A stretch of 64,000 nucleotides of DNA from contig CP000069.1 in the NCBI GenBank assembly GCA_000002445.1, positions 544,001 through 608,000 of the forward strand. The letters run 5' to 3'. The position numbers and the translations under genes are program-made. The notes beneath the pieces were generated by a model. The model ran no database searches and was not told the origin of the DNA. It was given only the letters and a program-made list of their open reading frames with translations. Of this stretch, positions 1-55,944 are shown piece after piece. The stretch comes from Trypanosoma brucei (Eukaryota). Position 1 is the stretch's first letter, and each line of letters opens with the position of its first letter.

Positions 1-399
1 ACCGTTGCGGGCACCGATGTCTCCACCTGAAACGGGAGCGTCAAGGCACGGTACTTGTTTCTCTTTCCACAAACGTTCCGCAATTTCCCGAGCGGTGCTT
101 GGCTTGATGGTACTGTTATCAACAAAAATGGTGCCCGGACGAACGCCGCTGTAGACGCCGTTTTTTCCGAAGACAACTTCATACACATCTGACGAATCAG
201 ACAAGTTGGTGAAGACGACATCGACGACCGCAGCCAATTCGGCAGGGGAGGCCGCCTCTTTGGCGCCACTTGCCACCAACTCAGCCGCTTTCGATCTGGT
301 GCGGTTAAACACAACAAGTGGGAAACCGGCTTTAAGAATGTTCGCCGCCATGGGTTTCCCCATTAGCCCGAGCCCGATGTAGCCAACTCGCAGCGACAT
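1..399 (-). CDS. NAD-binding 3-hydroxyisobutyrate/6-phosphogluconate dehydrogenase-family protein; N-terminal 133 codons only, the gene continues beyond the window start
   Basis: The reverse-complement of 1..399 is open in frame and begins with ATG at 399..397. It translates to MSLRVGYIGLGLMGKPMAANILKAGFPLVVFNRTRSKAAELVASG..., the classic GxIGLGxMGxxMAxNL Rossmann N-terminus of HIBADH/2-hydroxy-3-oxopropionate reductases. It is not in the ORF track because it runs off the window edge. Confidence 0.6.
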   Translation of the reverse strand, partial: MSLRVGYIGLGLMGKPMAANILKAGFPLVVFNRTRSKAAELVASGAKEAASPAELAAVVDVVFTNLSDSSDVYEVVFGKNGVYSGVRPGTIFVDNSTIKPSTAREIAERLWKEKQVPCLDAPVSGGDIGARNG

Positions 400-745
400 G
401 ACTTTATCCCTCACCGTATGTGCGTAAGTATATGAAACTTTAAGAATGTACTTGCAGTCTGTTAAAAGTATTAGAAAGTTGTGAAACAAGACCCACGGAG
501 AAAAATAAGGGAAACCAGACACGGTCAAAAAACGCAGGAGTAAAGAGAATACCAAAAGTGGATGCGGACGTAGAAACAAATGAGGCGCGGAGGGGGGGGG
601 ACGGACCAACGCTTGCCAAAAACAAATTGGAGATAAACCAAATGTCAAATCCCCTCGGTTCCAGACCGATTACGTGTGATTTCCTACACGATGGGAATTG
701 GCGCGAGCGCCTGTCTCGGGATGGGCTTTGTGGGAACTTAATTCG

Positions 746-9855: not shown

Positions 9856-10905
9856 TCAACCCCGCTTAAACTCGTAGGTTGGAAGTGTTTCCGCGTACGG
9901 ACCTGCATGGGGGCTGTACAATGGTTGATTCACTTCCCCGTGCATCTTCCGCAGTTCCGGGTGAAGCTGCTCCGTCAAGTGCCTCGAACATAAATCATAC
10001 GTCACCAGCAGTAGTGCCGCAGGGATGGAATTTAGTATCGGGCGGCTAGCGAAAAAACCATCGTAAATTTTGGTGATTCCATGTTTCCTGCGCACCTCCA
10101 CTATGTAAGAACGGAATGTGTGCGGCCGTCCGCGTGTGTGTTGATTCCGAATACGCACCTGCTGTCGTATGGAAAGAAATGGGTACTGCAGTATTTTACC
10201 TAGCAGCGCACCGCCGTGACAGTAAAGAAACAATACGGGAGTCCCGTGATACACGCCATCATACCTCACAGCGTTATACACACCCCATGTAGTGCCTAAC
10301 AGCGCCACTTGACTACAGGCTGCTACAGATACGCCGCGGTAAATGCCGAGAAGCACATTTGGTTTTTCAGTCACCGCCTTCATGAAGACATCCCAAGCAC
10401 CCACAAACTTCATTGGACCCTTCTCTGCCTCTGCTGTCGCGAGGAGGACCTCATACGGATGACGGAGAACCGCGTACAACAAACCAGTTAAACAGCCAGC
10501 AGTAAAACCACAAGTAGTGTTGCTTTCACATGGAATCAAATCGCGAAGCTTTGTGAATGCGGTCAACTGAAACGCGTAGCTGGCAATCGTCCATAGGTTA
10601 GATGGACCTGCAAGCCATTTTATGCCAAAAAGAGTCCTAAAGAAATGTGCACGTTTGTCTGATGCGTAAATGCGACTAGATTCACCTGGGACGTCACAGA
10701 GAAAGTAAAATGCATGCAGTTTTTCAATTGGACGCCGCAACCACGCCGTGATAGTGGAAGCAGAAAGAATAACTGCCGCATGTTGTTGGTGACTTAGTTG
10801 CGGCTCCGTATACCCACGGACCCTTATTGCAGGGTCACAAAATTTCCCTACGGGACGGAATCCAAAGGAAGCATGATAACCAGTCGTGCCAGTGGACGTT
10901 TGCAT
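9856..10905 (-). CDS. divergent mitochondrial carrier family (SLC25-like) protein
   Basis: A 349 aa ORF with three ~100 aa repeats. Each repeat has two hydrophobic helices and GxxxGxYRG-like linkers (LLGIYRGVSV, ITKIYDGFFASRP). At the positions of the carrier signature PX[DE]XX[KR] it has PIEKLH, PYEVLL and PFLSIR. Confidence 0.5.
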   Translation of the reverse strand: MQTSTGTTGYHASFGFRPVGKFCDPAIRVRGYTEPQLSHQQHAAVILSASTITAWLRRPIEKLHAFYFLCDVPGESSRIYASDKRAHFFRTLFGIKWLAGPSNLWTIASYAFQLTAFTKLRDLIPCESNTTCGFTAGCLTGLLYAVLRHPYEVLLATAEAEKGPMKFVGAWDVFMKAVTEKPNVLLGIYRGVSVAACSQVALLGTTWGVYNAVRYDGVYHGTPVLFLYCHGGALLGKILQYPFLSIRQQVRIRNQHTRGRPHTFRSYIVEVRRKHGITKIYDGFFASRPILNSIPAALLLVTYDLCSRHLTEQLHPELRKMHGEVNQPLYSPHAGPYAETLPTYEFKRG

Positions 10906-11504
10906 AAATTTCGTTTCACCACTTTAGGTGACGAAATTTCCCGTTTTTTTTTTCCACTCCTATGTTTGTCTGGCACTTCGCGTTCGCAAATACAAGAAAA
11001 AGAGGGGTGGTGGCGGTGGTGGTGGTGGTAGTGAAAGAAAACGGAAGACAAATGGCCACAAGCACGACGTGTACGAGCTAAAAAACACGTACAAATAATG
11101 ATAATAATAATGATCCAGTTGTACAAATGCAACTGGGTTCCCCGGTACTGCCACCAACATCGTCGTCGCGTCAGACCCCAGTTCTCTTACGTCGGTAACG
11201 TACAACAAAAAAAAAACAGTAGTTAAGCAGCAAAACACCACTTTCGTTCCTTTTTCTTCCACCGCTAGTGGGAGCGCCCCCTGCGGTGTAATTTCATATC
11301 TGTGATGGTGGGGAAACATTTTCCACGAAGGCAAGAATAATGTAAATTAAAACCCGCCCTGCAAGTAGCAGATTATACTCGTGGCAAATAATACAGCATT
11401 TGCACCGTGCTGGTTATCTGTGACTCTTTGAGACAAACGCACAGATCAGCTGAATCATGACGTAACTTAAATGCATTTGTCCCGAGTGTTCATACAGATG
11501 CACA

Positions 11505-11505
<1 letters not shown>

Positions 11506-11553
<48 letters not shown>
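11506..11553. repeat. compound (TA)16(TG)9 microsatellite
   Basis: atatatatatatatatatatatatatatatatgtgtgtgtgtgtgtgtgt. Confidence 0.9.
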
Positions 11554-12534
11554 ACGCGTTGCTATCACCATTACTTTTCAGACAGCAAAGAAGAAAAGAG
11601 ACCGCAACATATTACAGTTCTATCGGTGGACCACCAATCTGAAAAAAAAAGGTGCAGTGAACATATTTGTGCACTATCAGCAACAGCACCTCCTCATTGG
11701 AACCGTAAAGATATGGTTAACTATCACCTCAACGATACGCTGAAGACAGCAGATTTTTAGCCTAGAAGTATGAAAGGGTCATATATCCTACAGTTATTTC
11801 ACCCTTATGATTGTTGCACTCGCTAGCGGGAGGCTACACAAAAAGACAACAGAAGAAATGTAATACAGAAGCCACAGAAATGCGCATAAAGGGTAGCGTA
11901 ACCGATAGATATTGAAAAAACAGCAACTGAAAGCTAAGGAAGCGTGTCCGTGTCTGTGTGATGGGTGAAAATGCCTCACATAATATAACGGTTAAAGAGC
12001 GTCGCACTGCCAGTTGATGTGGTGCTTGTACATTTAAACCCGCGTCCTCTATTTATTCTGCATTACTTGCAGAGTATCATTATCCACCACCAACTCACAG
12101 TCCCGCGCATTATTGCGCAGCGGGGGGGGGAGAGGGGAGTAGCGCGGCGAGGGATCACACCAGCAGAACTTAGGCCTAACAGCGCAGAGTGTTATTAAAA
12201 GAACACACGAAACAAGACCATAAGCACTGGAAGGTTTTTAAAAAAAATATCGATAAGAACAGTTAATCTTAGGGGAAAAAATAACGAATAATTTGATGTA
12301 TGGTTCATATACGTTACACACATTAAGTCCATCCATATCTAACAAGGGTAACAGGAACAAAGGGGAGTTTAAGTGACTACTGCCGCTAGTAGAATATTGC
12401 GTTAGAAAAATAAACCAGCGGACGTGGGCGGAGACAAACACATCACAAGTAGGGGAAATTTACCTGTCCTCTATGAGCCATCAGCCGATGCCCATGTTTA
12501 AAAAAATAAAACATTTCCCCACGGGATCGTCTAG

Positions 12535-13425
12535 TTATTTCCCCTTCTTTCGGAGCACGGTGTTGAGGTGTGTGGCCAAACGGTAACCTGCGAGCGTTAT
12601 GCGCTTTTCAGCCATCTCCTTGCATGCACTAATATACTCCTCTGACAATTCAGTTCCATTAACAACATTAGCGTACGCCACTTTCTTTGCAAAATTAGAG
12701 CCCTCCTTCGATATTGCGGTGGCGCCAGTTTTCTTTTTCTCGCCTTCTGAAAATTTGTACGTTGCAATCAGTTTAGTGGCAAAATCTCTAACTTTAGAGT
12801 AATCCTCCGTATTAAGGGGCCGCTCCAATGACTCTGAAGGACCCCGGCAAATGGAATCCCACACGGCATGGAGCTTCATTGGGACCCCTCTGAAATCCAC
12901 ATGCACCAAATTGCCACCCTGATCTCCTTCCGGATAATCAGCGGAAACCTGCGAAGTCGTATGCAGAGGTTGATGAATATCACCATAGTAATGTACGAGA
13001 TGGGCAAGGGCAAAGGATCGCACATATATGGGAGTATCTGTCCGTCTTAGTGCCTTCGACAAACCGTTGATAACACTTACAACATCGGACTTTTGTTTAA
13101 GAGTTACGTTCGGTTTAAAGCCATCCCTAATGTACATATTGGCCGTATAGTGCCAACCGTCCATGGCACCCATGCGGTAACGCTTCAAATCATCTGGCCA
13201 ACAGGCACTTTGAACGAAATCGGGAATATTCGGGAACGGCCCGCTTTCGCTCAAGTGTTGTATATATGTCTCAACCACCCTGGCTACATCATTGTCAAGG
13301 TTACGTCGGGCTATTTCAGCAACAACCATATGGCCGAAATCCCACCACCCATCAACAGCCGCTGGAATGAAGGAAGTAATCAGAGCCAAGGTTATGCAAA
13401 GTGATGAAAGTGATGGATTCTTCAT
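12535..13425 (-). CDS. S1/P1-type (class I) nuclease / 3'-nucleotidase-nuclease family protein, copy 1
   Basis: Signal peptide MKNPSLSSLCITLALITSFIPAAVDG, then WWDFGHMVVAEIA, the mature N-terminal Trp/His zinc ligands of P1/S1 nucleases. Further HxxxxH and DxH metal-ligand motifs follow (YYGDIHQPLH, HAVWD). The ORF track extends 36 codons upstream to 13533, but the paralogue starts at the MKNPSL methionine. Confidence 0.8.
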   Translation of the reverse strand: MKNPSLSSLCITLALITSFIPAAVDGWWDFGHMVVAEIARRNLDNDVARVVETYIQHLSESGPFPNIPDFVQSACWPDDLKRYRMGAMDGWHYTANMYIRDGFKPNVTLKQKSDVVSVINGLSKALRRTDTPIYVRSFALAHLVHYYGDIHQPLHTTSQVSADYPEGDQGGNLVHVDFRGVPMKLHAVWDSICRGPSESLERPLNTEDYSKVRDFATKLIATYKFSEGEKKKTGATAISKEGSNFAKKVAYANVVNGTELSEEYISACKEMAEKRITLAGYRLATHLNTVLRKKGK

Positions 13426-13444
13426 GGTGTTGAGATGTCTTCCC
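12554..13444. repeat. segmental duplication copy A (nuclease gene unit)
   Basis: Matches 14255..15146 at an offset of about 1701-1702 nt. The 590 nt at the 5' end of the CDS differ at only 2 positions. The ~140 nt at the 3' end of the CDS are also near-identical. The block 12700-12835 in between is divergent. Confidence 0.85.
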
Positions 13445-14176
13445 TTTTCGAGGTATTTCCCACTTTTCCTCTTTGTCAAGCGCTTACGGAAAACTGTATA
13501 AATTGTATCTGTAGTTTTTATTCGTGTGAACACCTACTACGGTCGGTTTGTATTCACCCTGATTGGTTTTCTACGAACAGTATCACATTGGTGAGACACA
13601 AGACAAAGAACCAAGGGTTAGGGGGCGTAAGTATTTGCGTTGACGATGAACGAATAGATAAAGGTAAAACAACCACAAAAAGGCAAGCCCCATTACAACT
13701 ACAACAGGTTATATTAGCATAACTTTTATAGTGGGGGGTGATTGGAGCAAACGAATATTTATATGGAAGTTGGCTTCAATAGACAAGCGCAAAAATTGAG
13801 CCACACTCCTAACGTGACGATGGCATTTGTACATGAAATCTACGGGATCCAGCAATCTCCACAATTCGGAGAGCGTCACCAAAAGGCCCACCACGGCACT
13901 GCACATCACAGCAGAGAGGAGAAGGCAACATAGGCAGGAAACCTGAACAACGAAGCCAAGAGGACAGCAACAGGAAACCCCGAGAACGGTCACAAATACC
14001 GTATCTGGTGTGCCCCGCAGCAGATAACGTGAGATGTACCAACGGTTTCGATTCCACCATATCCTTCACAAACCAGAGAACAACAAAGCGCAAGACAGAA
14101 AAAAGCATTAAACAAACATAGCAAGTGCTTACGCAACTTTTTCTTTACAAAATATAACGCACAAATTACGACTGCC

Positions 14177-15127
14177 TCACTGGTCTTCAGCAAACAGATG
14201 CTCATCACCTCCTACATAGTCCGGATTCGCTTCTCGTTTTTCCCCTCGCACTCTCAGCACGGTATTGAGATGTGTGGCCAAACGGTAACCTGCGAGCGTT
14301 ATGCGCTTTTCAGCCATCTCCTTGCATGCACTAATATACTCCTCTGACAATTCAGTTCCATTTACAACATTAGCGTACGCCACTTTCTTTGCTAACTCGA
14401 AACCCTCCCTTGACATGACAACTGGGTTGGTTTGTTCCTTCTCCTTTTGTGAAAATTTGTACGTTGCAATCAGTTTAGTGGCAAAACTCTTCAATCTTAT
14501 GTAATCTATTATGTTGAGGGGCCGCTCCAATGACTCTGAAGGACCCCGGCAAATGGAATCCCACACGGCATGGAGCTTCATTGGGACCCCTCTGAAATCC
14601 ACATGCACCAAATTGCCACCCTGATCTCCTTCCGGATAATCAGCGGAAACCTGCGAAGTCGTATGCAGAGGTTGATGAATATCACCATAGTAATGTACGA
14701 GATGGGCAAGGGCAAAGGATCGCACATATATGGGAGTATCTGTCCGTCTTAGTGCCTTCGACAAACCGTTGATAACACTTACAACATCGGACTTTTGTTT
14801 AAGAGTTACGTTCGGTTTAAAGCCATCCCTAATGTACATATTGGCCGTATAGTGCCAACCGTCCATGGCACCCATGCGGTAACGCTTCAAATCATCTGGC
14901 CAACAGGCACTTTGAACGAAATCGGGAATATTCGGGAACGGCCCGCTTTCGCTCAAGTGTTGTATATATGTCTCAACCACCCTGGCTACATCATTGTCAA
15001 GGTTACGTCGGGCTATTTCAGCGACAACCATATGGCCGAAATCCCACCATCCATCAACAGCCGCTGGAATGAAGGAAGTAATCAGAGCCAAGGTTATGCA
15101 AAGTGATGAAAGTGATGGATTCTTCAT
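14177..15127 (-). CDS. S1/P1-type (class I) nuclease family protein, copy 2 (tandem paralogue with an alternative C-terminus)
   Basis: A 316 aa ORF. Its nucleotide sequence is nearly identical to copy 1 over the first ~590 nt, but it has a divergent block and a 20 aa longer C-terminal tail (…RVRGEKREANPDYVGGDEHLFAEDQ). Confidence 0.8.
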   Translation of the reverse strand: MKNPSLSSLCITLALITSFIPAAVDGWWDFGHMVVAEIARRNLDNDVARVVETYIQHLSESGPFPNIPDFVQSACWPDDLKRYRMGAMDGWHYTANMYIRDGFKPNVTLKQKSDVVSVINGLSKALRRTDTPIYVRSFALAHLVHYYGDIHQPLHTTSQVSADYPEGDQGGNLVHVDFRGVPMKLHAVWDSICRGPSESLERPLNIIDYIRLKSFATKLIATYKFSQKEKEQTNPVVMSREGFELAKKVAYANVVNGTELSEEYISACKEMAEKRITLAGYRLATHLNTVLRVRGEKREANPDYVGGDEHLFAEDQ

Positions 15128-15146
15128 GGTGTTGAGATGTCTTCTG
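14255..15146. repeat. segmental duplication copy B (nuclease gene unit)
   Basis: See copy A. Similarity ends about 20 nt upstream of the ATG (catggtgttgagatgtcttc is shared) and at the divergent C-terminal codons. Confidence 0.85.
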
Positions 15147-16624
15147 CTGTGATATCTCTTCTCTTATTATTTGGTCTGAAATACGTTTTTTTGTGTTGCA
15201 ATAATATGTGTTTATGGATGTGTTTGCACGCTTTCGGCGGCGCAGCAGTATTTCCTCAGAACCCCGTTGACCCACAAGAGGAAGGGAATAAAGCAAGGAA
15301 TAGAGAGAAAAGGGTTTGCGGCGTACATCGCACAGTGTAACAGATTAAGGCCCAGCATCATCTCTAACAAAACAAACTCCAAACAAACCCTGGGCAAAGA
15401 CGGAGTGTGAACCATCATTCCGCCATGTACTCTCGGTGCTATCCCTGAGTACATGCAGCGGTACTCCCTCCATTAAAACATCAAGTGGAGTTTCAGAAAG
15501 TGTCGTACTCTTACGCACTGCATTCGTATTTCATTTTTTTTTTACCTGTTGGACAGCAAATCCTCAGAAGAGTTGTGAATCATCTACATTAGCACCGACT
15601 GCAACGCGTTATTTGAGGACAGGTTATAGTCGTTTCAACTTGTAAGCACAAGGAAAAGAACAGAAGAACAAAAGAAGAAACAACACAACGATGTTAGGAA
15701 TACGAAAGGTTGTCCCCTGTCGGATATATCGCAATTCCAACCAACCCTCCCTCACAACTTCTCATGATTTGGTTACACTATGCATGGCTCCTTTCATCAC
15801 CTTTTTTTCGTTTTTATCGATTTTTTTTTTAAACGCAAAAGGGACAGTAAAAAGCAACAGAAGAAAAAAGTCACTTGCGATTACATGGTATTCACTTGTT
15901 TCTTTCCATTGGACATGACGCACGTCACACGCGTTCAAGGCAGTTACTCTGTCATACACGTCTTAGTGGAGGTACGCTTGAGCTTTTTGTGTTGTCTTCG
16001 ACTAATAAAATAGTGTGTCACCCATCCCCTGCTTTATTCCCTTACACTTCCCGCACCATAAAACAAAGAGTAGAAGAAAGGCAAGAACACGAGGGTAAAA
16101 GAAAAGAGAATGGATGTGGTAGACAAGACAGGGTTTGAATTGTTACGCACACACATGTGAACGCAGAAAACACACACACATATATATATGTATATATTGA
16201 CGTTGCTTTCCCTCAATCGGTAACACTTTTGCACGTTAGCGCGGCCGCTCACAATAACCCAACATTATGAAGAGGGCACGACTAAAAGGAAAAGAGGGGA
16301 ATGGGGACGCAACAACAATTCATATAACCCCTCGCCTCCTCATGCACTTTTCGTCGCTTGCGCCGTTGATGCAACCGGAGTTTCTCCACCAAGGCGAGGA
16401 AAGTGAAGGAAGGAAGGAAAAAAAAAAAAAGAGACGAAGGAATATGTGTGCGTGGGATAATATAACAAGAATGTATGCCTTTTCCTCCTGGCGTTGGGCG
16501 GTCGTGAATTTCTACATGTACGCCAATCCCGTCAGGAGGTGTGCGACATGGCAAAAGGAAAGTAAGAAACGAATCAACTTTTTGAACATGTGTACGGGTC
16601 GGCTACGGAGGTTCGCACAGCCTC

Positions 16625-19440: not shown

Positions 19441-22400
19441 TTAGCAACCTCGCGCCACCGGCACAGTAACAGAAGCAGCAGTGTTCCCACTCCCCCCATC
19501 CCGTGATACGTCAAGGAACGGTGGTGGCGTTGGGGTGTGGACGGGTTCAAGAAGTGGTGAACTAAAAGAGTCCCGCCCTTCAGGAACGTACCAGCTGGTT
19601 TCCACACCGGTTGCCAGTAACTTATCCAACACCGTGTCAAACTTTCCCTCTTCCTTCAATTGCTGATATTTGCGATAGAGGCGAAGAGACGTTCGGGCAT
19701 CCTCTACAGAGTCGTGTTCACCTTCTTGCACACGCTCACCCAGTACATGATAGGCCAGGAAACGCAACGACAAATATCTGCCCCCAGGTCTGTGAAAGAG
19801 CGTGAGCGTATCAATCATCTGATTCGGAGGAACCGCAATATTACAAACACGGAAGTCCTGATGTAGACCATGACCAACAAATGTCACTGAACGGTCCACC
19901 AAAGCCCGCAGTTTAAGATAAGTTGCCTTGAGGCTTGTAAGACACTTGGATGACTCCAGTGGGTCAAGATCGCCTGGGTGGATGCCACTGTACTGAGTTC
20001 ACGTAGTCCAAAATTGCTTCCGGAGTGTGAACGTAGTCATCCACAATCGTTCGTTCGTCGCCTGGAGCACTGCTCAGTACGCAGCTCAGTCGTGCGAGTG
20101 CCATGTGTCGCTGTTGTGCCAAGTTACCGGGTGAATCCGTAACACATTGACGCTTGTTCCAATCAAGTACCACATACTCCGCATCAAGAGCAACAAGGTC
20201 CTCTGGCTTGATGTCGAGATGGGATCTCAGTGGCGACTTGAAACGCTGTATCGAAGGATTACGTTGCAGGGGCCTTGCCAGAACATCATTTATTAGTAGT
20301 GGACCCAACGTCTCAAACATATTTGGTGGTCGCTCACCATCCTCTGCGCTGTACAGTGGTGTGGACAATTTGTCAAGGGCATAAAACGAAACAACCGCAC
20401 GGTGCGAACGTAGGGCAGGCATGGATACCTCCAACTTTTGTTCATCATCTGACTTTGTTACGAGATAGTCGTTGACAAGGCTGAAACGATCATCCTCAAC
20501 GCGCTGGTGGCTAACGAAGTTCCCCGGGTCATCTGCGTCATTGGAAAGGTGGATGATATTGCTGCAAAGTAAATAATTGGAGTCATCTTTTGCATCACGC
20601 GAGATGCGGAGACACCTGGGTGGTTTTAGTGTTCCTCCCTCAGGGTTCAGTCGCAGTACGATGATGGGTGGAAGGCGCTTTATTTGTACGTTACTGTTGT
20701 GCCCCTCCAGTTGCTTCAATAAGTGCTGCAGTCCCTCATTGACCTTGATAGCAGACGCCGGAACATCCCAATAGAACCGAGGTTCCACATGAACTTTACC
20801 ACCAGATGAAAACTCCGTACCAAAAAGACTAGCTATCGACTTGTCAAAATCTCCACAAGGTTGCTTATGGTTCATAAATGGATACTCCTTCTCGTCCTGC
20901 AGACCACGATGTAATGCTTCGAGCAACACCAGTTGCGCCATGTGCATCCGCTTCACCGCTTCATCACGGGATTTTATTGGCTCGAAAAGTGGGGCAGCGG
21001 AAGGACACCTGTACATAGTACGGATGAGATTCCCCACTTGTACAATGGGATTAAGACCAGCTACTGAAGTCATCATCATGTTAGAAAACACGAATGCAAT
21101 TTCACAGGCGATGCAATACTCCTTCGCACAAATATGATGCACGACCACCCTACGGACAGGGAATTCCTTCGGGTGACACAGGTACAGAGACTGAAGCAAT
21201 GTTGTAATCCAGCACTCAGGAAAACTATTATCGAGCCCAACAACAACCTTCGGAATCCTATTGTACTTTTCCCACTCGAATCGCTGATGTGACCCATAAC
21301 ACACGAGGTTAGCGGCATCTTGCGGCACGTAGTTGTCGGCAACCCCTCCGCGAAAGGTGCTCTGCCGCCGCTTCTTCTCCTTGTTCAGTTCCAATAGCAA
21401 GTGCTGCACCGCTGCAGGATCGTTCCCCAACATTAAATTATACGGATATGGATTCGGAAGGAGTGGTGCGAGTTTGTCTCTTGGGTCAGGGAGATATGAA
21501 TCAGAGCGCCGGAGGCCCCATCGATTGGGCTCATAAGTCCACGACTCCCCGTTGACACAACACGTCGAAGGAGCCACTTGTAAGATCATGTAGTTTTCCG
21601 GTGGCCAGTTGGAGGCGAGTTCCTCAACAGGTACAGACTCGTCGAAGAACGCAAACGTGTCACCTTCCTTATCTTCCCAGCGCGCTGTAAAGACGGGGTT
21701 AACAGGGCGCTTCGGTTGTACGAATCGAGACATGACGTAGTCCTCACGTGTTGCTGGATGGCCAAGAGCCATGAAGTGACCCTTATCGTTCCCTATTGCA
21801 GCGCACATTGCGTTGGGCGATACGCTCACCGAGGTGCAGGCGTCGTCAAACAATCCACTTGAGCTGTAGACGGGTGTTGTTTGATCCATCTGGACAATGT
21901 GAAACCCGCGTGAAGTCAACACGAAAGCACGGTCGGGCAACACACCAAAAGGGTCACGATAACGACGAACTTGCGAAATACTGTCTGACGGTATACCATT
22001 AATGGTGTTGAGCGGTTCAGCCATCTTCCGTACATCATACACACGAACGCTACTCGTCATATTCCGCTCCACCACGGCAGCAATGACCGTTTCGTCGTCT
22101 GCGTCCATGGCGAGCACACGGTTGCGAGACGACGGTATGGAAGCAACCACCTGAAGTTCGTTTGCATCTCGTACCACGATGCCGCCTGACGTGGCGCCTG
22201 TAATAACCCACTTGCTTGTCTGTCTCAACGACACCACCTTGCCTTCCATGAGGGGAACGGTTACGTGATTACACGCGGTTCCGTCGCTGATGGACATTCG
22301 CGTTAGTCCAACATCACCAACGATACTCACCACACCTGTATCGCCGTTTGCCTGAAAAAGTTCAATATGGTCCTGTGACTGTGGTGGAAGAGGGCAATAC

Positions 22401-22696
22401 ATGCACTGCGCACCGCCTCGTTTGTAACCCCGAATAACATCATGGTCTGCCACCATTCCTACCGTCTCATTGCCCATCCTTAGGAAAAAGATCCCAAAGA
22501 TAGGCCTTGTGGATGCGGCAAATGAGGAATACACCGCCCACGAAAGAGTATCCGTTTGACTCTGCGTGGTGAAACTCATCAAGCGACCAAAACTGTCCCC
22601 GACCCATAAAAGTTCCACATCGGGGTCGAACTCAATCGCATTGACAATACCAACAAATGCTTGAACGCTACCTCGAACCTTCCACGGAACGCTCAT
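19441..22696 (-). CDS. PAN2: PAN2, catalytic subunit of the PAN2-PAN3 poly(A) nuclease, with its reading frame interrupted by a 1-nt frameshift
   Basis: The ORF at 19964..22696 (910 aa) has WD40-like N-terminal repeats and a ubiquitin-hydrolase-like middle domain. It then shows the start of a DEDDh exonuclease (…LVALDAEYVV…) and stops after …DYVNSVQWHPPRRS. The +1 frame from about 19998 continues TQYSGIHPGDLD…FVGHGLHQDFRVCN…HDSVEDARTSLRLYRKY through ORF 19441..19902. That is the remainder of the exonuclease domain, with the ExoIII motif H-x4-DA. A single extra A (coding strand) at about 19998-19999 breaks the frame. Confidence 0.7.
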
Positions 22697-33315: not shown

Positions 33316-36300
33316 TCACCAATCACTATCACTGCTATCAAATGTGGGCAATTTTCGCTGGGGTACCTTCTTTGCAGGAGGCCCCTGAGCCGGCGGCTTC
33401 GCTTCCCCCCGGCGGATTTCGGCACTGTTCCCTTCACGCGACGAACCCGAAGACTCATTTCCAGCAGCACTACCCCCACTAATAACAGGGGGGTTGATGA
33501 CCTCAGCGGATCTCTGTAGGCTTTCATCGGTAATTGGTGGGGGTCCATCCGAGTCGCTATCTTCTTGCAGTGCTTCAGCGGCAATCGGCGGGGGTCCATC
33601 AAGTTCCGGTGATTCGTTAGGATTGTCAGCAACAACTGGCGGAGGCCCATCAAAATCATCGTTGTCAAACGGCGGAGGCCCATCAAGTTCCGGTGATTCG
33701 TTAGGATTGTCAGCAACAACCGGCGGAGGCCCATCAAGATCATCGTTGTCAAACGGCGGAGGCCCATCAAGTTCCGGTGATTCGTTAGGATTGTCAGCAA
33801 CAACCGGCGGAGGCCCATCAAAATCATCTTTGTCAATCGGCGGAGGCCCATCAAAATCATCGTTATCAATCGGTGGGGGTCCATCAAGATCATCGTTATC
33901 AATCGGCGGGGGTCCATCAAGTTCCGGTGGACTGTGTGAAGCTTCCAACGGGGCAGGAGGAGGCACACAACCACCTGTAGAAGAACTATGAGGTTCATAA
34001 AATTCAACTGGTGGTGGACCCTCGTCATCGGCGGATAATTGGGGGTCACCGGCTCCGGCACCCAACGTAGTAACAGCAGGTGGGGAGGAAATCACTTCGC
34101 CGTCATTCGGTGCGTCTTTTGGCAGTCCATCTGTTGGTACCTCCTCTCCCTCTTGAACGCCGTCTGTATCCGGAGCAGGTCGGAGTGATGGTATGTATTC
34201 AGCAAACATGTCAATTACAATTTGAAGAGTGGTTTCCTCCTCTGATACAATGCAGGCACGCATTTCACCCTCTCCCAACACGAGTGAGCGCTGTTCTGCC
34301 GCTATGGCAGCGATCCGTGTCACCAAACTCTTTTCATTTTCATAATCAAATAATAGCCCACTAAGTTCTGCACATTCCTCGGAGTCAATGGCATTGCGCA
34401 CGCCACTCTCCGTTGCAATTAAGTCATTTTGATCAGCGATGTGAACACTAGTTGTCGCATCCATAACGATAGAATGGAATTCGGCCTCTTCCTTCAGCAA
34501 AAGCACAGCGTACCCCCTGGCGCATTCACGGCGCAGCAATTGTCTTTCCTCCAACTCTGCAGACCATCTCGCTTCAAGGGCACTCAAATCTTCAGCGAAC
34601 TTTTCTAGCAACGTAGAAGCCAGGCGTTCTGCTTCGACGAAAAGCTGCTGCCGCTGCTCTGCCTCGCCCTTAAACATCAATGTAACTCTGTTGAAAAAGT
34701 CCTCCATTTGCATAACGATATCAAAACGGCCTTGCCTCTCTCGTGTGTTGAACTCACAAAGAGCTTCACCATCTCGCTCAATCATCAAAGCATACACAGC
34801 TTTAGCAGTCGACTCATAGCCCGTCTGTAGTGGCAACAGCCATCCGTTATATAACTCTTCCAAACTCTTTTTGTAGAGCATCAGCGTCGCTTCCTCGATC
34901 CACTGGAAGCGCCGCCGAGTTGCCGAAGCCAGTTCTGCAAGGTATTCCCGCTCCTGAAAGCTAAAATTAAGCGGTCTCCTCTTTCTTAGGTCTTCCAAAA
35001 GCGCCAACAAGTCGCTGACCTTAACCGGCCGCCGCAGTCGGTGGGCGAGAGCAGCAAAAGCAGCCATGATTTTGTCCCGACCACCTTGCAGCCTACCACG
35101 TGCGTTGCTAACCAACATTTCTAGTCGCCCGCGCCTGAAGTTCTCCTCGTGTAGCTGAGCGTTGAGACGTGCCGCCCTCGCGCCAGTGGTGCGCACCGTC
35201 ATTATACCGTCCTCAGCAGCCTGTCGAAGGTCCGCGCGACAGATATTGAGCTCCGCAAGAAGACGCTGTGCCTCCAGCGCGAGCTCCTGCTGCCTGTGCT
35301 CTGCTGCACTCCCTCGACTTTCCGCCTTTCCAATAGAGCGACCCTCTGCTTGACCGCGCCTGAAATTTTCCTCTGACGTGCGGGCACGATCCGCCATAAA
35401 CTTCGCCTCACGCGTTTGCAACTCCGTGATGAATTCTGTGCGCAACTGTTGCACCTCCATTGCGCGTCGTTGCCGCTCATCCTCAACAACCTGCGCATGC
35501 TGCGTCCGCTGCATGTCCGCCGCGCGCCGAACATCTTCAAGTTGGCCATTCTTCACGTGAAGTTCAGTTTTTGCCCTTGACAGCTGCTCTTGAAGTGTGG
35601 CTATAGTGGCCTCCAATGCCTTACGACGGGACCTTTCCTCTGACAGCGCATCTTGCAGATTATTAAGGGCACTAGCGGCTCTGTTTGTTTCTTCCGTGTT
35701 TAAGGAAGAAGTGCTACGCAAGTCTCGCAACTCTGTTTCGGATACCTGGAGAAGTTGCTTCACCGTCTGCAGATGTCGTTGAGCATCGTCCCGCTCCATT
35801 GCCGCCTGGTTAATTTGCTGCTGTACCTGCATGATAGCTCGCTCTCCCTCCAGTCTCACATCAGAAGCTGTTCGGGTGCACTTGTTCTTCTCGTCCAGCA
35901 GCTCCTGGGAGGCGAGGACCGCGCTGTCTACGCGCCGCTGCATTTCTTGATTACGGCGATCCAGCTCCCGTATTAATCCATCCCTTTGAGAGATAGAGTC
36001 GGCAACTCGGTCACTTTCCATGACGAGTTGCTGAACCGCTTCCAAAAGCGCTGCGTTTGTCAGCCTTGATGGCTTTGGTCTATTGATGGCGCGCCGCCAT
36101 TCGGCTGCTGTGGCCTCACTGATACTGCGGACGGTACGAGAATTTTCCACCGCCCCGTTAAGAAGCAGACCCAATCTCTGAAGGATTTCCATGTGTCCCT
36201 CTGGTACGCCAGCACCGGGCTCCACTGCAGAACTGCGTTGGGCAGATAATGCTCCCGGGGCCTCAACAACCCCCGCCCCACTGAAAGGCACGACAGCTGC

Positions 36301-37188
36301 CACGACATTACCACCCGAGCTACCTTCACTAGTTGGGACGATCAGAGCTCCGCTTCCTTCTTCGGCAACCGCTAAATCATCACCAACAGTCATCACCGTA
36401 GGTACACCGTCACTTTCCATGTTGAAAGTTTCGTCCTGAAGTATGTTTATCAACTGCACGACGAAAGCGGCACCATCGGCACCATACATGTTTCGGCGCC
36501 CATGCGGCAAGGCGGCAGCAGGCACCACAATGACGCGAGTGGAGCCCTCTCCCATACCGATCACTCCGCTTTCGAAGCCGTAGGCATCTGGAAAGTCACC
36601 CTGTAGGAGCGCTGCCGTGGACGCAACGGGTCTGAAGCAATACAACTCCTCCCCATTTGACTCCAGTAAGTCGCCCAGAAGTGGGAGCTCTGCACCACGA
36701 ACAGCATAAGCCGTATAATGAACACGCGCACGGTTATGCTGTTGGAGTCGAATGTCGACGCCGACAGGCATGAAGTCACTGGTATGTGCGGAATGTGTGG
36801 GTCGCCCTGCCAGCGCGTAGGTGGCTATTCCCAGAGCCGCGAGGAATGCCTTCTGTTTCTCTCCACTGAGAAACGCACACTTCCAATATTTTCCGGCCCC
36901 ATCGCGAAAACTTGCGTACATGCCGGTGTTCAACTGGAATTGTACGCTTTGCTCCAAACTTGAAGATATTGATGCCACACACAACGTTTCACGGCGGTCG
37001 TTGTAACACACAATACTGTACCTTGGCCGCCCTGCCGAGGTTGCTGCTGCAACAATGGCACACGCACAATTGCCACGTTCTATAGCCGTTCCATCAACCA
37101 CTTCAAATAGAGAAATCGGTGCGGCAATCAGTACCTTCTGCTGCATCACATTCAGCAGCAAAGGTTTTTTGTGGGTAACGTAAAGCAA
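33316..37188 (-). CDS. large coiled-coil protein (1290 aa) with a C-terminal tandem-repeat domain (DGPPP motifs)
   Basis: The central ~500 aa is heptad-rich and charged (…LQEQLSRAKTELHVKNGQLEDVRRAADMQRTQHAQVVEDERQRR…). The C-terminus carries about 11 copies of DGPPP within 11 aa and 17 aa repeat units (DGPPPIDNDDL / ESPELDGPPPVVADNPN). Confidence 0.6.
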   Translation of the reverse strand: MLYVTHKKPLLLNVMQQKVLIAAPISLFEVVDGTAIERGNCACAIVAAATSAGRPRYSIVCYNDRRETLCVASISSSLEQSVQFQLNTGMYASFRDGAGKYWKCAFLSGEKQKAFLAALGIATYALAGRPTHSAHTSDFMPVGVDIRLQQHNRARVHYTAYAVRGAELPLLGDLLESNGEELYCFRPVASTAALLQGDFPDAYGFESGVIGMGEGSTRVIVVPAAALPHGRRNMYGADGAAFVVQLINILQDETFNMESDGVPTVMTVGDDLAVAEEGSGALIVPTSEGSSGGNVVAAVVPFSGAGVVEAPGALSAQRSSAVEPGAGVPEGHMEILQRLGLLLNGAVENSRTVRSISEATAAEWRRAINRPKPSRLTNAALLEAVQQLVMESDRVADSISQRDGLIRELDRRNQEMQRRVDSAVLASQELLDEKNKCTRTASDVRLEGERAIMQVQQQINQAAMERDDAQRHLQTVKQLLQVSETELRDLRSTSSLNTEETNRAASALNNLQDALSEERSRRKALEATIATLQEQLSRAKTELHVKNGQLEDVRRAADMQRTQHAQVVEDERQRRAMEVQQLRTEFITELQTREAKFMADRARTSEENFRRGQAEGRSIGKAESRGSAAEHRQQELALEAQRLLAELNICRADLRQAAEDGIMTVRTTGARAARLNAQLHEENFRRGRLEMLVSNARGRLQGGRDKIMAAFAALAHRLRRPVKVSDLLALLEDLRKRRPLNFSFQEREYLAELASATRRRFQWIEEATLMLYKKSLEELYNGWLLPLQTGYESTAKAVYALMIERDGEALCEFNTRERQGRFDIVMQMEDFFNRVTLMFKGEAEQRQQLFVEAERLASTLLEKFAEDLSALEARWSAELEERQLLRRECARGYAVLLLKEEAEFHSIVMDATTSVHIADQNDLIATESGVRNAIDSEECAELSGLLFDYENEKSLVTRIAAIAAEQRSLVLGEGEMRACIVSEEETTLQIVIDMFAEYIPSLRPAPDTDGVQEGEEVPTDGLPKDAPNDGEVISSPPAVTTLGAGAGDPQLSADDEGPPPVEFYEPHSSSTGGCVPPPAPLEASHSPPELDGPPPIDNDDLDGPPPIDNDDFDGPPPIDKDDFDGPPPVVADNPNESPELDGPPPFDNDDLDGPPPVVADNPNESPELDGPPPFDNDDFDGPPPVVADNPNESPELDGPPPIAAEALQEDSDSDGPPPITDESLQRSAEVINPPVISGGSAAGNESSGSSREGNSAEIRRGEAKPPAQGPPAKKVPQRKLPTFDSSDSDW
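33587..33935 (-). repeat. coding tandem-repeat array of alternating 51-nt and 33-nt units sharing the core ggcggaggcccatcaa (DGPPP on the minus strand)
   Basis: Units read directly from the sequence: 33587-33637, 33638-33670, 33671-33721, 33722-33754, 33755-33805, 33806-33838, 33839-33871 and 33872-33904, plus a partial unit. There are only a few substitutions between copies. Confidence 0.85.
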
Positions 37189-51674: not shown

Positions 51675-52796
51675 TCCCTCAACCTAATGGATTATTTATT
51701 TTAACAACGTTACACTACACACAAACACACAAACACACACAAACACAACACAGATACACACAGAAATAAATAAATAAAAATATATATATTTGTGTAATTA
51801 TGTGTGCAGCAATAAATTCCAACTCGCTACTGTGAGCCAAATAAAAACGAGTGCTGACAGTACTACTGAAGCCTCCTTAACGCTCAATTCCACCTCTTTG
51901 GGGCTGCCTTTTTTTTTTTTAAATCACGCGGCTAAGCCAAAAAAAAAAGGAAAAAAGGGATGCGGGAAACAAAAGAAATTGCAAGAAAAAAAAAACACTG
52001 ACCCTTTTCCTTTTTTTTTTGAACCTGCCGCTGACGTTCCTGATATCTTCTTGTTTATCACTCGCTAAATCGCTCACCTTCTGTTTGCGGAGATGTGCGG
52101 ATGATTATGTTTTCGTTTATTAATTGTACCTCCCTATTCGATATGTTTTCTTTAATTAATTTTTTTCCTCCCCTTTCCCTTACCTAAATGTATTCACCAA
52201 AGAAATTTTCAAAAGAAAAAAATAATAAAAGGAACAACAACAAAAACAACAAAATGGAGTGAAGGAAACATTCAGTACATTTTATCAATCTTTTTGATCA
52301 TATATATATATATATATATATTATTTATTTATTTTTTTGAATTTCTCACACGATCCCAAGAAACAATCCAACACATACACACACACACACACACAGAGAG
52401 AGGATTGCGAATGGAGAAATAAACATGAAAGCAAACTAAAACCCACCCTTTTAAAATTAATCAAATATATCAGGCATCTTAACATGTTTCATACGCTTTT
52501 GTCACACATGTCACTGAAACACAAGTGTCTGCATATGAATTTATTTTTCTATTTTATTTATTTTTATTTTTTTGGAAGAGGGAGGAAAATGGGATCTTTT
52601 ATTTTTTTTTTTTATTATTTAATTAAAAGCCTGTAAATGGAGATGTGAAAGACACATAAGTGTTAATAGCATTGAGAGTACAAACAAGAAATACAACAAA
52701 AACCCTCATGCGTAGATGTTTATTTACCTAAACGTACGTACATATGCATATGTGTAAGCATTCATAATTATGTTACTGCTCTCCAGCTTTTTTTAA

Positions 52797-52827
<31 letters not shown>

Positions 52828-53486
52828 TGCATATACAACAGCAGAAACGAATCATTTTAAATTCCTTTCGACACATCATTCATTCATTTATCCTTGACGA
52901 CTACAGTCACAACAAAACAATATCAAATTCAACATCATCAAAATGTTTCGTTAGCACTTCCCCGTCTTCCTCCAGTCCTTTTCCTTCTTCTTTTTTACAT
53001 ACCTTCATATTTTAAAATAAATGAACCTTTACTCTTCTTCTTTGTTTTTTTTCTTTGTCCCCCCCCCCTATTCCTACATTAAATGCTCATATCGAAACTG
53101 TTTCAAATCCTTTTTAATACTGCCACGTGTTTATGTCGATACTTTTTAAAAAAAATTTAAAAAATTCTTCAAATGGAATTATTTGGTACCGCTTCTCTTT
53201 TTGCCTCGCTTCATTGACTCATAAGAATGTAAATGTCTAAACATACTAAATATTGTATACATATATAAATAAATAAATAAATAAATATATATATATATAT
53301 ATAAATATTCTGTGTGTCTGTTCGGTGTCTATATTAAATGCTATGGGTGAAAGAAAGCAAGAAAAAGATAGAGGAAAGAGAAGAGAACAGAATACATTAT
53401 CCTCGTAGCGAAAGAATTTTTAGAAAAAAAAAACAACATCAAAAAAAAATAAATAAATATAATTAAGTAAATAGAGCAAACACATA

Positions 53487-53524
<38 letters not shown>
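53487..53524. repeat. (AT)19 microsatellite
   Basis: Read directly from the sequence, inside the 6.6 kb ORF-free region. Confidence 0.9.
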
Positions 53525-53528
<4 letters not shown>

Positions 53529-55789: not shown

Positions 55790-55853
55790 AACACACACAC
55801 ACACACACACAAACACAAACACACAAACAAACAAACAAACAAACAAACAAACA
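55790..55853. repeat. compound (CA)11(CAAA/CAAAC)n microsatellite
   Basis: Read directly from the sequence. Confidence 0.9.
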
Positions 55854-55913
55854 GACGCACAATTGTACCTACAAATCATCAACACCAACAGAAATAGTAA
55901 CAACACTGACACC

Positions 55914-55944
55914 GACAACAACAACAACAACAACAACAACAACA
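55914..55944. repeat. (CAA)10 microsatellite
   Basis: Read directly from the sequence. Confidence 0.9.

What the first reader, a model, noticed from the sequence alone, without database searches (positions are those of the whole stretch)
12535..15147. Tandem S1/P1-nuclease paralogues that are near-identical mosaics with different C-termini
Two head-to-tail genes 1.7 kb apart. Their first ~590 nt differ at only 2 positions, and the last ~140 nt of shared CDS are likewise near-identical. An internal ~135 nt block (12700-12835 versus 14402-14537) is strongly divergent (…TEDYSKVRDFATKLIATYKFSEGEKKKTGATAISKEGSNF… versus …IIDYIRLKSFATKLIATYKFSQKEKEQTNPVVMSREGFEL…). Copy 2 has a 20 aa acidic C-terminal extension. 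Similarity stops abruptly about 20 nt 5' of the ATG and at the 3' end of the CDS, so the flanking UTR/spacer sequences are unrelated. This pattern suggests recent gene conversion confined to coding sequence, superimposed on an older duplication. The two secreted or surface class I nucleases would then share a catalytic core but have distinct tails, with possibly different anchoring or localisation. They also sit behind different UTRs, so expression may differ.
Basis: seen in the sequence. Interest (0 to 1): 0.5.

Follow-up and report, generated by a model that had tools for sequence, protein, structure and literature searches.

The report
Tandem nuclease genes homogenised by gene conversion
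Two neighbouring, already annotated Trypanosoma brucei genes for zinc-dependent S1/P1 nucleases are kept almost identical by repeated copying between them, apart from a few old leftover patches and unrelated ends; this is a clear but ordinary case of how tandem genes evolve in this parasite.

Summary
The window is T. brucei brucei TREU927 chromosome 6. Both genes lie on the minus strand: downstream copy A at 12535-13425 (296 aa, Tb927.6.1640) and upstream copy B at 14177-15127 (316 aa, by position Tb927.6.1650). Both are complete S1/P1 nucleases with a signal peptide and all nine zinc ligands.

Identity starts 17 nt before the ATG. CDS 1-611 has 2 differences. The 51 differences cluster in three patches (CDS 612-641, 679-735, 858-end; permutation p<1e-5). 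Synonymous sites are saturated inside the patches but show dS 0.015-0.04 outside them. The flanks are unrelated.

Two other assemblies show the process at work:
- In T. b. gambiense, copy A is B-type through the whole CDS. The tract ends in a GGGGAAA motif, which shifts the frame and creates a new 306-aa tail.
- T. equiperdum has three copies, including an A-5'/B-3' hybrid of the kind unequal crossing-over produces.
- Strain-specific substitutions are shared by both paralogues.

The gene-conversion reading is therefore supported. "Confined to coding sequence" does not hold for T. equiperdum. The suggested difference in anchoring is not supported, because neither tail is hydrophobic. Mosaic tandem arrays in T. 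brucei are well documented, so interest is low.

The parts
14177..15127 (-). Copy B, the upstream gene (316 aa). S1/P1 nuclease, XP_845287. Tb927.6.1650 by position.
   Evidence: ORF. PF02265 E=6e-68. Exact match to XP_845287. Numbering inferred from Tb927.6.1630.1640.1660 and .1670.
12535..13425 (-). Copy A, the downstream gene (296 aa). S1/P1 nuclease, XP_845286, Tb927.6.1640.
   Evidence: ORF. PF02265 E=1.3e-67. Exact match to XP_845286. Tb927.6.1640 is listed as 'single strand-specific nuclease' in the S1 table of PMC8648117.
12815..13442 (-). Homogenised tract 1 in copy A: 17 nt of 5' leader plus CDS 1-611. The partner in B is 14517-15144. There are 2 synonymous differences. The tract includes the signal peptide (codons 1-26) and all zinc-ligand motifs.
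   Evidence: dS 0.015, dN 0.
12785..12814 (-). Relict block 1 in copy A (CDS 612-641, aa 206-214, TEDYSKVRD against IIDYIRLKS). The partner in B is 14487-14516.
   Evidence: 17 of 30 nt differ. The A-type is also kept in T. equiperdum copies 2 and 3 and is erased in T. b. gambiense.
12748..12784 (-). A 37-nt identical stretch between the blocks (CDS 642-678, FATKLIATYKFS). The partner in B is 14450-14486.
   Evidence: 0 differences, including at synonymous sites.
12691..12747 (-). Relict block 2 in copy A (CDS 679-735, aa 227-245). The partner in B is 14393-14449.
   Evidence: 27 of 57 nt differ and pS is 0.74. Among the three assemblies the A-type is found only in TREU927.
12569..12690 (-). 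Homogenised tract 3 in copy A (CDS 736-857). The partner in B is 14271-14392. There is 1 synonymous difference.
12535..12568 (-). Relict 3' end of copy A (CDS 858 to the stop, tail ...RKKGK*). The counterpart in B is 14177-14270 (tail ...RVRGEKREANPDYVGGDEHLFAEDQ*).
   Evidence: 4 synonymous differences in codons 286-292, followed by an indel and unrelated sequence.
13443..14176 (-). Spacer between the genes (B 3' flank plus A 5' flank). It is unrelated to the sequence upstream of B or downstream of A.
   Evidence: No blastn similarity apart from the trivial self-overlap. A-type and B-type flanks are each conserved between strains.

Best explanation
The finding is the annotated tandem pair Tb927.6.1640 and Tb927.6.1650 on T. 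brucei chromosome 6. It encodes two soluble, signal-peptide-bearing, zinc-dependent S1/P1 (class I) nucleases.

The duplication is old. Wherever the copies have not been overwritten, synonymous sites are saturated and the non-coding flanks cannot be aligned.

Homologous recombination between the copies repeatedly overwrites the coding sequence, through gene conversion and occasional unequal crossing-over. Tracts stop where homology runs out: 17 nt before the ATG, near the stop codon, and at internal patches that have already diverged.

In TREU927, copy A still carries three un-overwritten relict patches. In T. b. gambiense they have been erased. In T. equiperdum an unequal crossover has produced a third, hybrid copy.

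The different C-termini are by-products of where homology ends rather than anchoring devices.

Function is inferred from the family. After the signal peptide is cleaved before Trp27, the enzymes would hydrolyse single-stranded nucleic acids and 3'-nucleotides in the secretory pathway or outside the cell. This would feed purine salvage, mainly during and after differentiation to the insect form.

Shown here: the sequence anatomy, the strain comparison and family membership. Inferred: the recombination mechanism, enzyme activity, location and role.
For: Identity and family:
- Exact protein matches to XP_845286 and XP_845287.
- PF02265 at E about 1e-67 for both.
- PDB relatives AtBFN2, S1 and P1 by sequence.
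- AF2 model with pLDDT 91.3, with Foldseek top hits all S1/P1 nucleases.
- W27, H32, D78, H92, H145, D149, H155, H186 and D190 are present in both copies and conserved in 72 homologues.

Mosaic:
- Searches give p<1e-5 for clustering.
- dS is 0.015-0.04 in the tracts, against pS 0.74-0.87 in the blocks.
- dN/dS is below 1 in the blocks.

Ongoing exchange:
- Strain-specific bases are shared by both paralogues at CDS 333, 336, 678, 822 (TREU927) and 851 (gambiense).
- The A/B diagnostic-site maps differ in the three strains.
- The gambiense tract ends in GGGGAAA and shifts the frame to give a 306-aa product.
- T. equiperdum has three copies. Copy 2 is identical to copy 1 over CDS 642 to the end (0/310 differences) and differs from copy 3 at 3 of 912 positions over -300..611.

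No outside donor: in the blocks A and B are as far from each other (48-55% nt identity) as either is from the unlinked paralogue Tb927.6.2890.

Expression: Tb927.6.1650 and Tb927.6.2890 proteins rise from 2 h of bloodstream-to-procyclic differentiation (PMC4765897). Tb927.6.1640 mRNA is detected in PMC8648117.

Background: mosaics and concerted evolution in T. brucei tandem arrays (PMC1855330; PMC2854126).
Against: - Only three assemblies were available. The haplotypes could be old segregating alleles rather than independent recent events.
- The third T. equiperdum copy carries single-base deletions, and that assembly is long-read based, so its copy number and the state of copy 3 need read-level confirmation.
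- The age of the duplication is not resolved. T. congolense shows only one sequence type, equally distant from A and B in the block.
- No experimental data on activity or location of these two proteins were found in the searched literature.
- The proteomic 'Tb927.6.1650' signal cannot distinguish the two copies, because most peptides are shared.
Confidence: 0.85

Rival explanations
1. The divergent patches are kept different by selection. Copy A of TREU927 would be a functionally distinct isoform (different surface, partner, substrate preference or antigenicity), and conversion is purged whenever it erases the patch.
For: The patch is the fastest-evolving part of the protein across trypanosomes: about 50% identity between T. 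brucei and T. congolense, against 71% in the core. It covers parts of three predicted helices. 20 of 43 residues differ.
Against: - dN/dS in the patch is below 1, with saturated dS.
- The patch is fully erased in T. b. gambiense, and block 2 is erased in all T. equiperdum copies, without loss of the ORF.
- No zinc ligand and only one near-invariant residue (E241, kept in both) lies in it.
Confidence: 0.1
2. The A-type patches were imported recently from another locus or species (ectopic conversion or introgression) into an otherwise young duplicate.
For: The patches are as divergent from B as a different paralogue would be.
Against: - The only other paralogue found, Tb927.6.2890 (locus L003), is no closer to A than to B in the patches: 17/33 and 32/60 against 17/33 and 37/60 nt.
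- T. congolense is equally distant from both.
- The unrelated A-type flanks are conserved in all three strains, which fits an old duplicate.
- Codons 286-292 differ only synonymously, as expected for old orthodox divergence.
Confidence: 0.04
3. One copy is an assembly duplicate or collapsed-repeat artefact.
For: The long identical stretches (up to 506 nt between differences) are the kind of sequence that assemblers mishandle.
Against: Both copies have unique, unrelated flanks and unique internal patches. The same B-then-A arrangement, with a spacing of 1702-1704 nt, is present in the independent T. b. gambiense and T. equiperdum assemblies.
Confidence: 0.01

Closest known systems
Mosaic or concerted evolution of tandem gene arrays in T. 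brucei (Jackson 2007, PMC1855330; Jackson et al. 2010, PMC2854126)
   Same: Tandem duplicates in one polycistronic unit. Gene-conversion tracts produce sequence mosaics. The mosaics are subspecies-specific between T. b. brucei and T. b. gambiense. Copies with remodelled, unalignable UTRs tend to keep distinct termini.
   Different: Those surveys covered arrays with more than 3 copies. A search of both papers for 'nuclease' and for these gene IDs found nothing, so this two-copy pair was apparently not analysed. Here non-coding flanks are completely unrelated while the CDS is almost identical. The 2007 paper describes that pattern for only a minority of arrays.
Leishmania major p1/s1 nuclease cluster LmjF.30.1460-1510 (PMC13232948)
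   Same: A tandem array of class I (S1/P1) nuclease genes in a trypanosomatid. It shows very high identity between coding regions but different protein ends. The product is a secreted enzyme with 3'-nucleotidase and endonuclease activity, linked to purine salvage.
   Different: There are six genes, and they differ at the N-terminus (TM domain against signal peptide). Intergenic regions are also highly similar. Activity and secretion were shown experimentally there and not here.
Leishmania P4/LmaC1N and LdNuc(s) soluble class I nucleases (review PMC8554303)
   Same: About 315 aa, with an N-terminal signal peptide, no C-terminal membrane anchor, and the conserved class I motifs. L. pifanoi P4 (Q9NJY3) is 41% identical over 97% of copy A.
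   Different: P4 is reported as ER/perinuclear and LdNuc(s) as secreted, and both are amastigote-expressed. The location and stage pattern of the T. brucei pair are not established.
Leishmania/Crithidia surface 3'-nucleotidase/nuclease (3'-NT/NU)
   Same: The same S1/P1 catalytic domain and signal peptide, and a presumed purine-salvage role.
   Different: 3'-NT/NU is anchored by a C-terminal transmembrane domain. Neither tail here is hydrophobic.
Tb927.6.2890, the third T. brucei S1/P1 nuclease (P0008 is its T. b. gambiense orthologue)
   Same: Same chromosome and same family. It is about 61% identical at the protein level and is co-upregulated early in differentiation.
   Different: It is single-copy and lies about 300 kb away in the T. 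b. gambiense record, between a kinesin gene and an HD-domain gene. It has a hydrophobic C-terminus typical of a GPI or TM signal. It takes no part in the exchange.

Membership tests
S1/P1 nuclease family (Pfam PF02265, nuclease S1 type) | Full-length match to the family profile above the curated cut-off | tested here: met
   228.8 and 229.9 bits against a cut-off of 29.5, with profile positions 1-257 of 258 covered in both copies.
S1/P1 nuclease family (Pfam PF02265, nuclease S1 type) | Nine ligands of the trinuclear zinc site (P1 nuclease W1, H6, D45, H60, H116, D120, H126, H149, D153) | tested here: met
   W27, H32, D78, H92, H145, D149, H155, H186 and D190 are present in both copies. They are invariant or nearly invariant in the 72-sequence alignment. 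The mapping onto P1 numbering uses motif correspondence from my own knowledge of 1AK0.
S1/P1 nuclease family (Pfam PF02265, nuclease S1 type) | All-alpha phospholipase C/P1 nuclease fold | tested here: met
   AF2 model with pLDDT 91.3 and pTM 0.88. The 21 best Foldseek hits are AtBFN2, TBN1, SmNuc1, S1 and P1 (TM normalised to target 0.72-0.78), followed by bacterial phospholipase C.
S1/P1 nuclease family (Pfam PF02265, nuclease S1 type) | Mature N-terminus is the zinc-binding Trp, exposed by signal-peptide cleavage | tested here: inconclusive
   A hydrophobic N-terminal segment (KD 2.15) precedes ...AVDG|WW. No signal-peptide predictor or cleavage data were available.
S1/P1 nuclease family (Pfam PF02265, nuclease S1 type) | Zn-dependent hydrolysis of ssDNA, RNA or 3'-nucleotides | not testable with these tools
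   No biochemical data on Tb927.6.1640 or Tb927.6.1650 were found in the searched literature.
Membrane-anchored trypanosomatid 3'-NT/NU | C-terminal transmembrane anchor | tested here: not met
   The maximum 15-residue hydropathy in the last 45 aa is 0.58 for both copies. It is 2.2-2.5 for Tb927.6.2890, T. congolense TcIL3000_6_1210 and a Leptomonas 3'-NT/NU.
Concerted evolution of a tandem array by gene conversion and unequal crossing-over | Differences clustered into blocks, with discordant synonymous divergence between segments | tested here: met
   Permutation p<1e-5. dS is 0.015-0.04 against saturated values.
Concerted evolution of a tandem array by gene conversion and unequal crossing-over | Paralogues within a genome share substitutions that distinguish genomes | tested here: met
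   CDS 333, 336, 678 and 822 are shared by both TREU927 copies, and CDS 851 by both gambiense copies.
Concerted evolution of a tandem array by gene conversion and unequal crossing-over | Tract boundaries or copy number differ between related genomes | tested here: met
   There are three different A/B mosaics, and a three-copy array with a hybrid middle copy in T. equiperdum. Caveat: there is one assembly per strain and no read-level check.

The most novel reading that the evidence does not exclude
The A-type patch (aa 206-245) and the alternative tails are not just leftovers. They would form a swappable surface module that segregates in T. brucei populations, giving strains different nuclease isoforms (for example different antigenicity, partner binding or substrate preference). 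Each isoform would be tied to one of two unrelated 3' UTRs that set stage-specific expression. Recombination between the copies would then reshuffle isoform and regulatory context, as in the T. equiperdum hybrid.
Probability: 0.1. Interest if true: 0.4.

Novelty: new member of a known kind. Interest (0 to 1): 0.2.

Why it matters
The main value is as a clean, small worked example. A two-gene array in which three genomes show three different conversion or crossover outcomes illustrates several things:
- how coding sequence is homogenised while flanks stay insulated;
- how already diverged patches resist overwriting;
- how tract endpoints can create new protein termini.

Practically, the near-identity of the two CDSs means that RNAi, CRISPR guides, proteomic peptides and short-read mapping cannot separate Tb927.6.1640 from Tb927.6.1650. 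Only the about 125-nt internal block, the tails and the UTRs allow that, and even these markers are strain-specific.

The finding does not change what is known about S1/P1 nucleases or about recombination in trypanosomes.

Tried and rejected
- Looked for a third copy in the window with tblastn of the paralogues. None was found.
- Tested the unlinked paralogue Tb927.6.2890 as donor of the A-type blocks. There was no excess identity.
- Tried to polarise the A and B blocks with T. congolense, T. vivax and other trypanosomes. The result is a star-like, uninformative pattern: 23/43, 21/43 and 23/43 identities.
- The second T. congolense entry is 99.7% identical to the first, so it gives no evidence of an A/B pair in that species.
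- Exact-protein look-ups for the two TREU927 proteins in the assembly index returned nothing, so no further strains could be added.
- Searched the differentiation-proteomics supplements for per-gene data. The files held do not contain the IDs.
- The acoziborole RNA-seq table is truncated and lists Tb927.6.1640 but not Tb927.6.1650, so the two 3' UTR contexts could not be compared for expression.
- Considered an RNA-mediated (retroposed) duplication because homology starts close to the ATG. I rejected it for two reasons. On reading the sequence upstream of copy A I saw no spliced-leader sequence (this rests on my memory of the SL sequence, not a pattern search). The likely polypyrimidine/AG splice signals also lie about 130-150 nt upstream of both ATGs, inside non-homologous sequence (inference).
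Only its secondary-structure position is given.
- Rfam and tRNA scans of the window found nothing.
Full report
**What is in the sequence**

The interval holds two open reading frames on the minus strand. The upstream one, which I call B, runs 15127..14177 and encodes 316 aa. The downstream one, A, runs 13425..12535 and encodes 296 aa. The mechanical ORF list extends A to a GTG at 13533, but the alignment with B and with all homologues places the start at the ATG at 13425.

Start-to-start spacing is 1702 nt. A blastn of the two genes with 600-nt flanks finds one alignment, from 17 nt before the ATG to about CDS position 872. The base-by-base alignment and an ungapped codon comparison of the 292 shared codons show 51 differences, distributed as follows:
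- CDS 1-611: 2 differences (positions 78 and 105).
- CDS 612-641: 17 differences.
- CDS 642-678: none.
- CDS 679-735: 27 differences.
- CDS 736-857: 1 difference (position 765).
- CDS 858-874: 4 differences, followed by an indel and unrelated sequence.

In 100,000 random placements of 51 differences, none reached the observed 506-nt identical run or 44 differences within 135 nt. Its block coordinates are shifted by about 10-20 nt, and its single block is really two sub-blocks separated by 37 identical bases.

**What the genes are**

Both proteins are exact matches to XP_845286 and XP_845287, 'single strand-specific nuclease, putative', of T. brucei brucei TREU927, on a 1,618,915-bp record.

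The neighbours fix the position on chromosome 6:
- The 349-aa mitochondrial carrier at 9856-10905 corresponds to the 39-kDa MCP Tb927.6.1630.
- The PAN2-like ORF at 19964-22696 corresponds to Tb927.6.1670.
- Tb927.6.1660 is a flagellar protein. By position it is the 570-aa ORF just upstream of B.
- Tb927.6.1640 is listed as 'single strand-specific nuclease, putative' in a published RNA-seq table.

A is therefore Tb927.6.1640 and B, by position, is Tb927.6.1650.

Both match Pfam S1-P1_nuclease end to end at E about 1e-67, and both hit AtBFN2, SmNuc1, TBN1, S1 and P1 nuclease chains in the PDB. An AlphaFold2 model of A built on 72 homologues has pLDDT 91.3. Its 21 best Foldseek matches are all S1/P1 nucleases, followed by zinc phospholipases C.

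The nine zinc ligands of P1 nuclease have counterparts in both copies: W27, H32, D78, H92, H145, D149, H155, H186 and D190. The numbering correspondence with P1 comes from my own knowledge. A hydrophobic N-terminal segment precedes AVDG|WW, so the zinc-binding Trp would become the mature N-terminus after signal-peptide cleavage. This step is inferred.

**The tails**

After R292, A ends KKGK and B ends VRGEKREANPDYVGGDEHLFAEDQ. Neither contains a hydrophobic stretch. The maximum 15-residue Kyte-Doolittle mean in the last 45 residues is 0.58 for both. The same measure is 2.2-2.5 for Tb927.6.2890, for T. congolense TcIL3000_6_1210 and for a Leptomonas 3'-NT/NU, all of which end in hydrophobic segments.

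Neither tail therefore predicts a C-terminal transmembrane or GPI anchor, and the suggestion of different anchoring is not supported. Both proteins look like soluble secretory-pathway enzymes. In this respect they resemble Leishmania P4/LdNuc(s) rather than the membrane-anchored 3'-NT/NU.

**Old duplication, recent homogenisation**

Nei-Gojobori counts give dS of 0.015 for codons 1-203 and 0.039 for codons 247-285, with dN of 0 in both. The two blocks have proportions of synonymous difference of 0.87 and 0.74, which is saturation. Their pN values are 0.43 and 0.37, so dN/dS is below 1. Codons 286-292 differ at four synonymous sites and at no non-synonymous site. The 12 codons between the blocks are identical even at synonymous sites.

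This is the signature of an old pair of sequences most of which has been overwritten recently. It is not a young duplicate with a hypervariable patch.

At the DNA level the A and B blocks are 48-55% identical to each other. That is no closer than either is to the unlinked third paralogue, for which I fetched the T. b. gambiense orthologue, lying between a kinesin gene and an HD-domain gene exactly as expected for Tb927.6.2890. The third paralogue is therefore not the donor of either block.

Outgroup proteins do not polarise the blocks. Identities over 43 residues are 23 for A against T. congolense, 21 for B against T. congolense, and 23 for A against B. The duplication is about as deep as the divergence between T. 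brucei and T. congolense, but its age is not resolved.

**Comparison with other genomes**

The 90% cluster holds six proteins from TREU927, T. b. gambiense DAL972 and T. equiperdum. Their alignment already shows shifting mosaics. I fetched both loci, aligned all copies with flanks, and scored every site at which TREU927 A and B differ.

The A-type and B-type 5' flanks, and the homology boundary at -17, are the same in all three genomes. The copies are therefore positional orthologues.

*T. b. gambiense.* Copy A is B-type at all 17 diagnostic sites of block 1, at 26 of the 28 in block 2, and at 7 of the 9 in block 3. It then switches to A-type sequence within the shared GGGGAAA motif. B has one more base than A upstream of that motif. 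The A-type TAA stop is therefore out of frame, and the ORF reads through to give VRGEITRRSRGEMFYFF, a 306-aa product.

*T. equiperdum.* There are three copies, at L001 4297, 6001 and 7701:
- Copy 1 is B-type.
- Copy 3 has A-type flanks, an A-like block 1 and B-type blocks 2 and 3.
- Copy 2 has the A-type 5' flank and block 1, then B-type sequence through the stop codon and at least 760 nt of 3' flank.

Copy 2 is identical to copy 1 over CDS 642 to the end (0 differences in 310 nt). It differs from copy 3 at 3 of 912 positions over -300..611. The two spacers differ at 5 positions. This is the product expected from unequal crossing-over between an A copy and a B copy.

*Shared substitutions.* Several substitutions that distinguish strains are shared by both paralogues within a strain: CDS 333, 336, 678 and 822 in TREU927, and 851 in gambiense. 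That requires exchange between the copies after the lineages, or the haplotypes, separated.

**Mechanism**

The best explanation is concerted evolution by homologous recombination. Conversion tracts and crossovers can form only where the copies are similar. They therefore end at the edge of the unrelated flanks and tend to end at patches that have already diverged. Heteroduplex rejection of diverged sequence by mismatch repair is established for T. brucei; I state this from my own knowledge and did not test it here. A tract that starts and ends in homology on both sides can still erase a patch, as in gambiense.

'Confined to coding sequence' is thus a consequence of where homology exists, not a special property. 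It fails in T. equiperdum, where a crossover carried the whole B 3' flank into the middle copy.

The C-terminal differences are most simply by-products of the 3' homology boundary. The gambiense read-through tail shows how easily a new one arises.

**Function**

This part is inferred from the family and from the literature. Class I nucleases of trypanosomatids hydrolyse extracellular or lumenal nucleic acids and 3'-nucleotides for purine salvage (PMC8554303; PMC13232948).

For T. brucei, a quantitative proteome groups Tb927.6.1650 and Tb927.6.2890 among proteins that rise from 2 h after induction of bloodstream-to-procyclic differentiation (PMC4765897). Tb927.6.2890 and, more weakly, Tb927.6.1640 mRNAs rise in a procyclic-like drug-resistant line (PMC8648117). 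Most peptides and reads are shared between A and B, so these data do not separate the copies. Whether the unrelated 3' UTRs give the two genes different stage profiles remains untested.

**Comparison with what is known, and novelty**

Mosaic, concerted evolution of tandem arrays is documented genome-wide for T. brucei, including subspecies-specific mosaics between T. b. brucei and T. b. gambiense (PMC1855330; PMC2854126). Those surveys used arrays of more than three copies and mention neither this pair nor any nuclease. The specific description here seems to be new, but the kind is not.

A tandem array of six p1/s1 nuclease genes with near-identical cores and different ends exists in L. major.

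The genes themselves have been annotated since the reference genome. I rate the finding a new member of a known kind, with low interest. It has practical value for anyone who needs to tell the two genes apart experimentally.

**Rivals**

- Selection maintaining the patch as a distinct isoform is not excluded, but it is disfavoured. The patch is lost in other strains, dN/dS is below 1, and no catalytic residue lies in it.
- Import from an outside donor is disfavoured and by the conserved A-type flanks.
- An assembly artefact is excluded by three independent assemblies.

Noticed in passing
window 51700-57500: About 5.8 kb of AT-rich sequence (GC 0.25-0.35, strongly negative GC skew) with no ORF of 200 aa or more. 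It lies between a protein-kinase gene and a 221-aa ORF/PP2C gene, inside a run of genes that are all on the minus strand. It contains ACAC, ACAA and T/A-rich microsatellites. There are no Rfam or tRNA hits.
   Followed up: partly
window 19964-22696 (-): The PAN2-like ORF (UCH_1 domain plus a beta-propeller hit) is only 910 aa. The literature says Tb927.6.1670 (PAN2) is annotated as a pseudogene in strain 927 but is intact in other kinetoplastids.
   Followed up: partly
window 33582-33920, inside the ORF 33316-37188 (-): Tandem repeats of 84 nt (3.2 copies, 95% matches) and 33 nt (3.6 copies) lie inside a 1290-aa ORF that has no Pfam match.
   Followed up: no
L002 6001-6921 (T. b. gambiense copy A): One unit of the 9-nt direct repeat CATCACTTT in the signal-peptide codons is missing, which removes 3 aa (SLS). 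It looks like replication slippage.
   Followed up: partly
L001 7701-8595 (T. equiperdum third copy): The third nuclease copy has single-base deletions (one at CDS column 470 and several in block 1) and was not called as a gene. It is either a pseudogene or carries uncorrected long-read indels.
   Followed up: partly
window 11488-11557 and 16170-16197: (AT)n(GT)n microsatellites lie about 1 kb outside each end of the nuclease pair, in inverted orientation relative to each other (96% complementary over 28 nt). This is probably a coincidence of simple repeats.
   Followed up: no
L003 2501-3481 (T. b. gambiense orthologue of Tb927.6.2890): The third S1/P1 paralogue ends in a hydrophobic segment (…YGAILILGVLFCCHF) that resembles a GPI or TM signal. 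Within T. brucei, an anchored form and soluble forms of this enzyme family may therefore coexist.
   Followed up: partly
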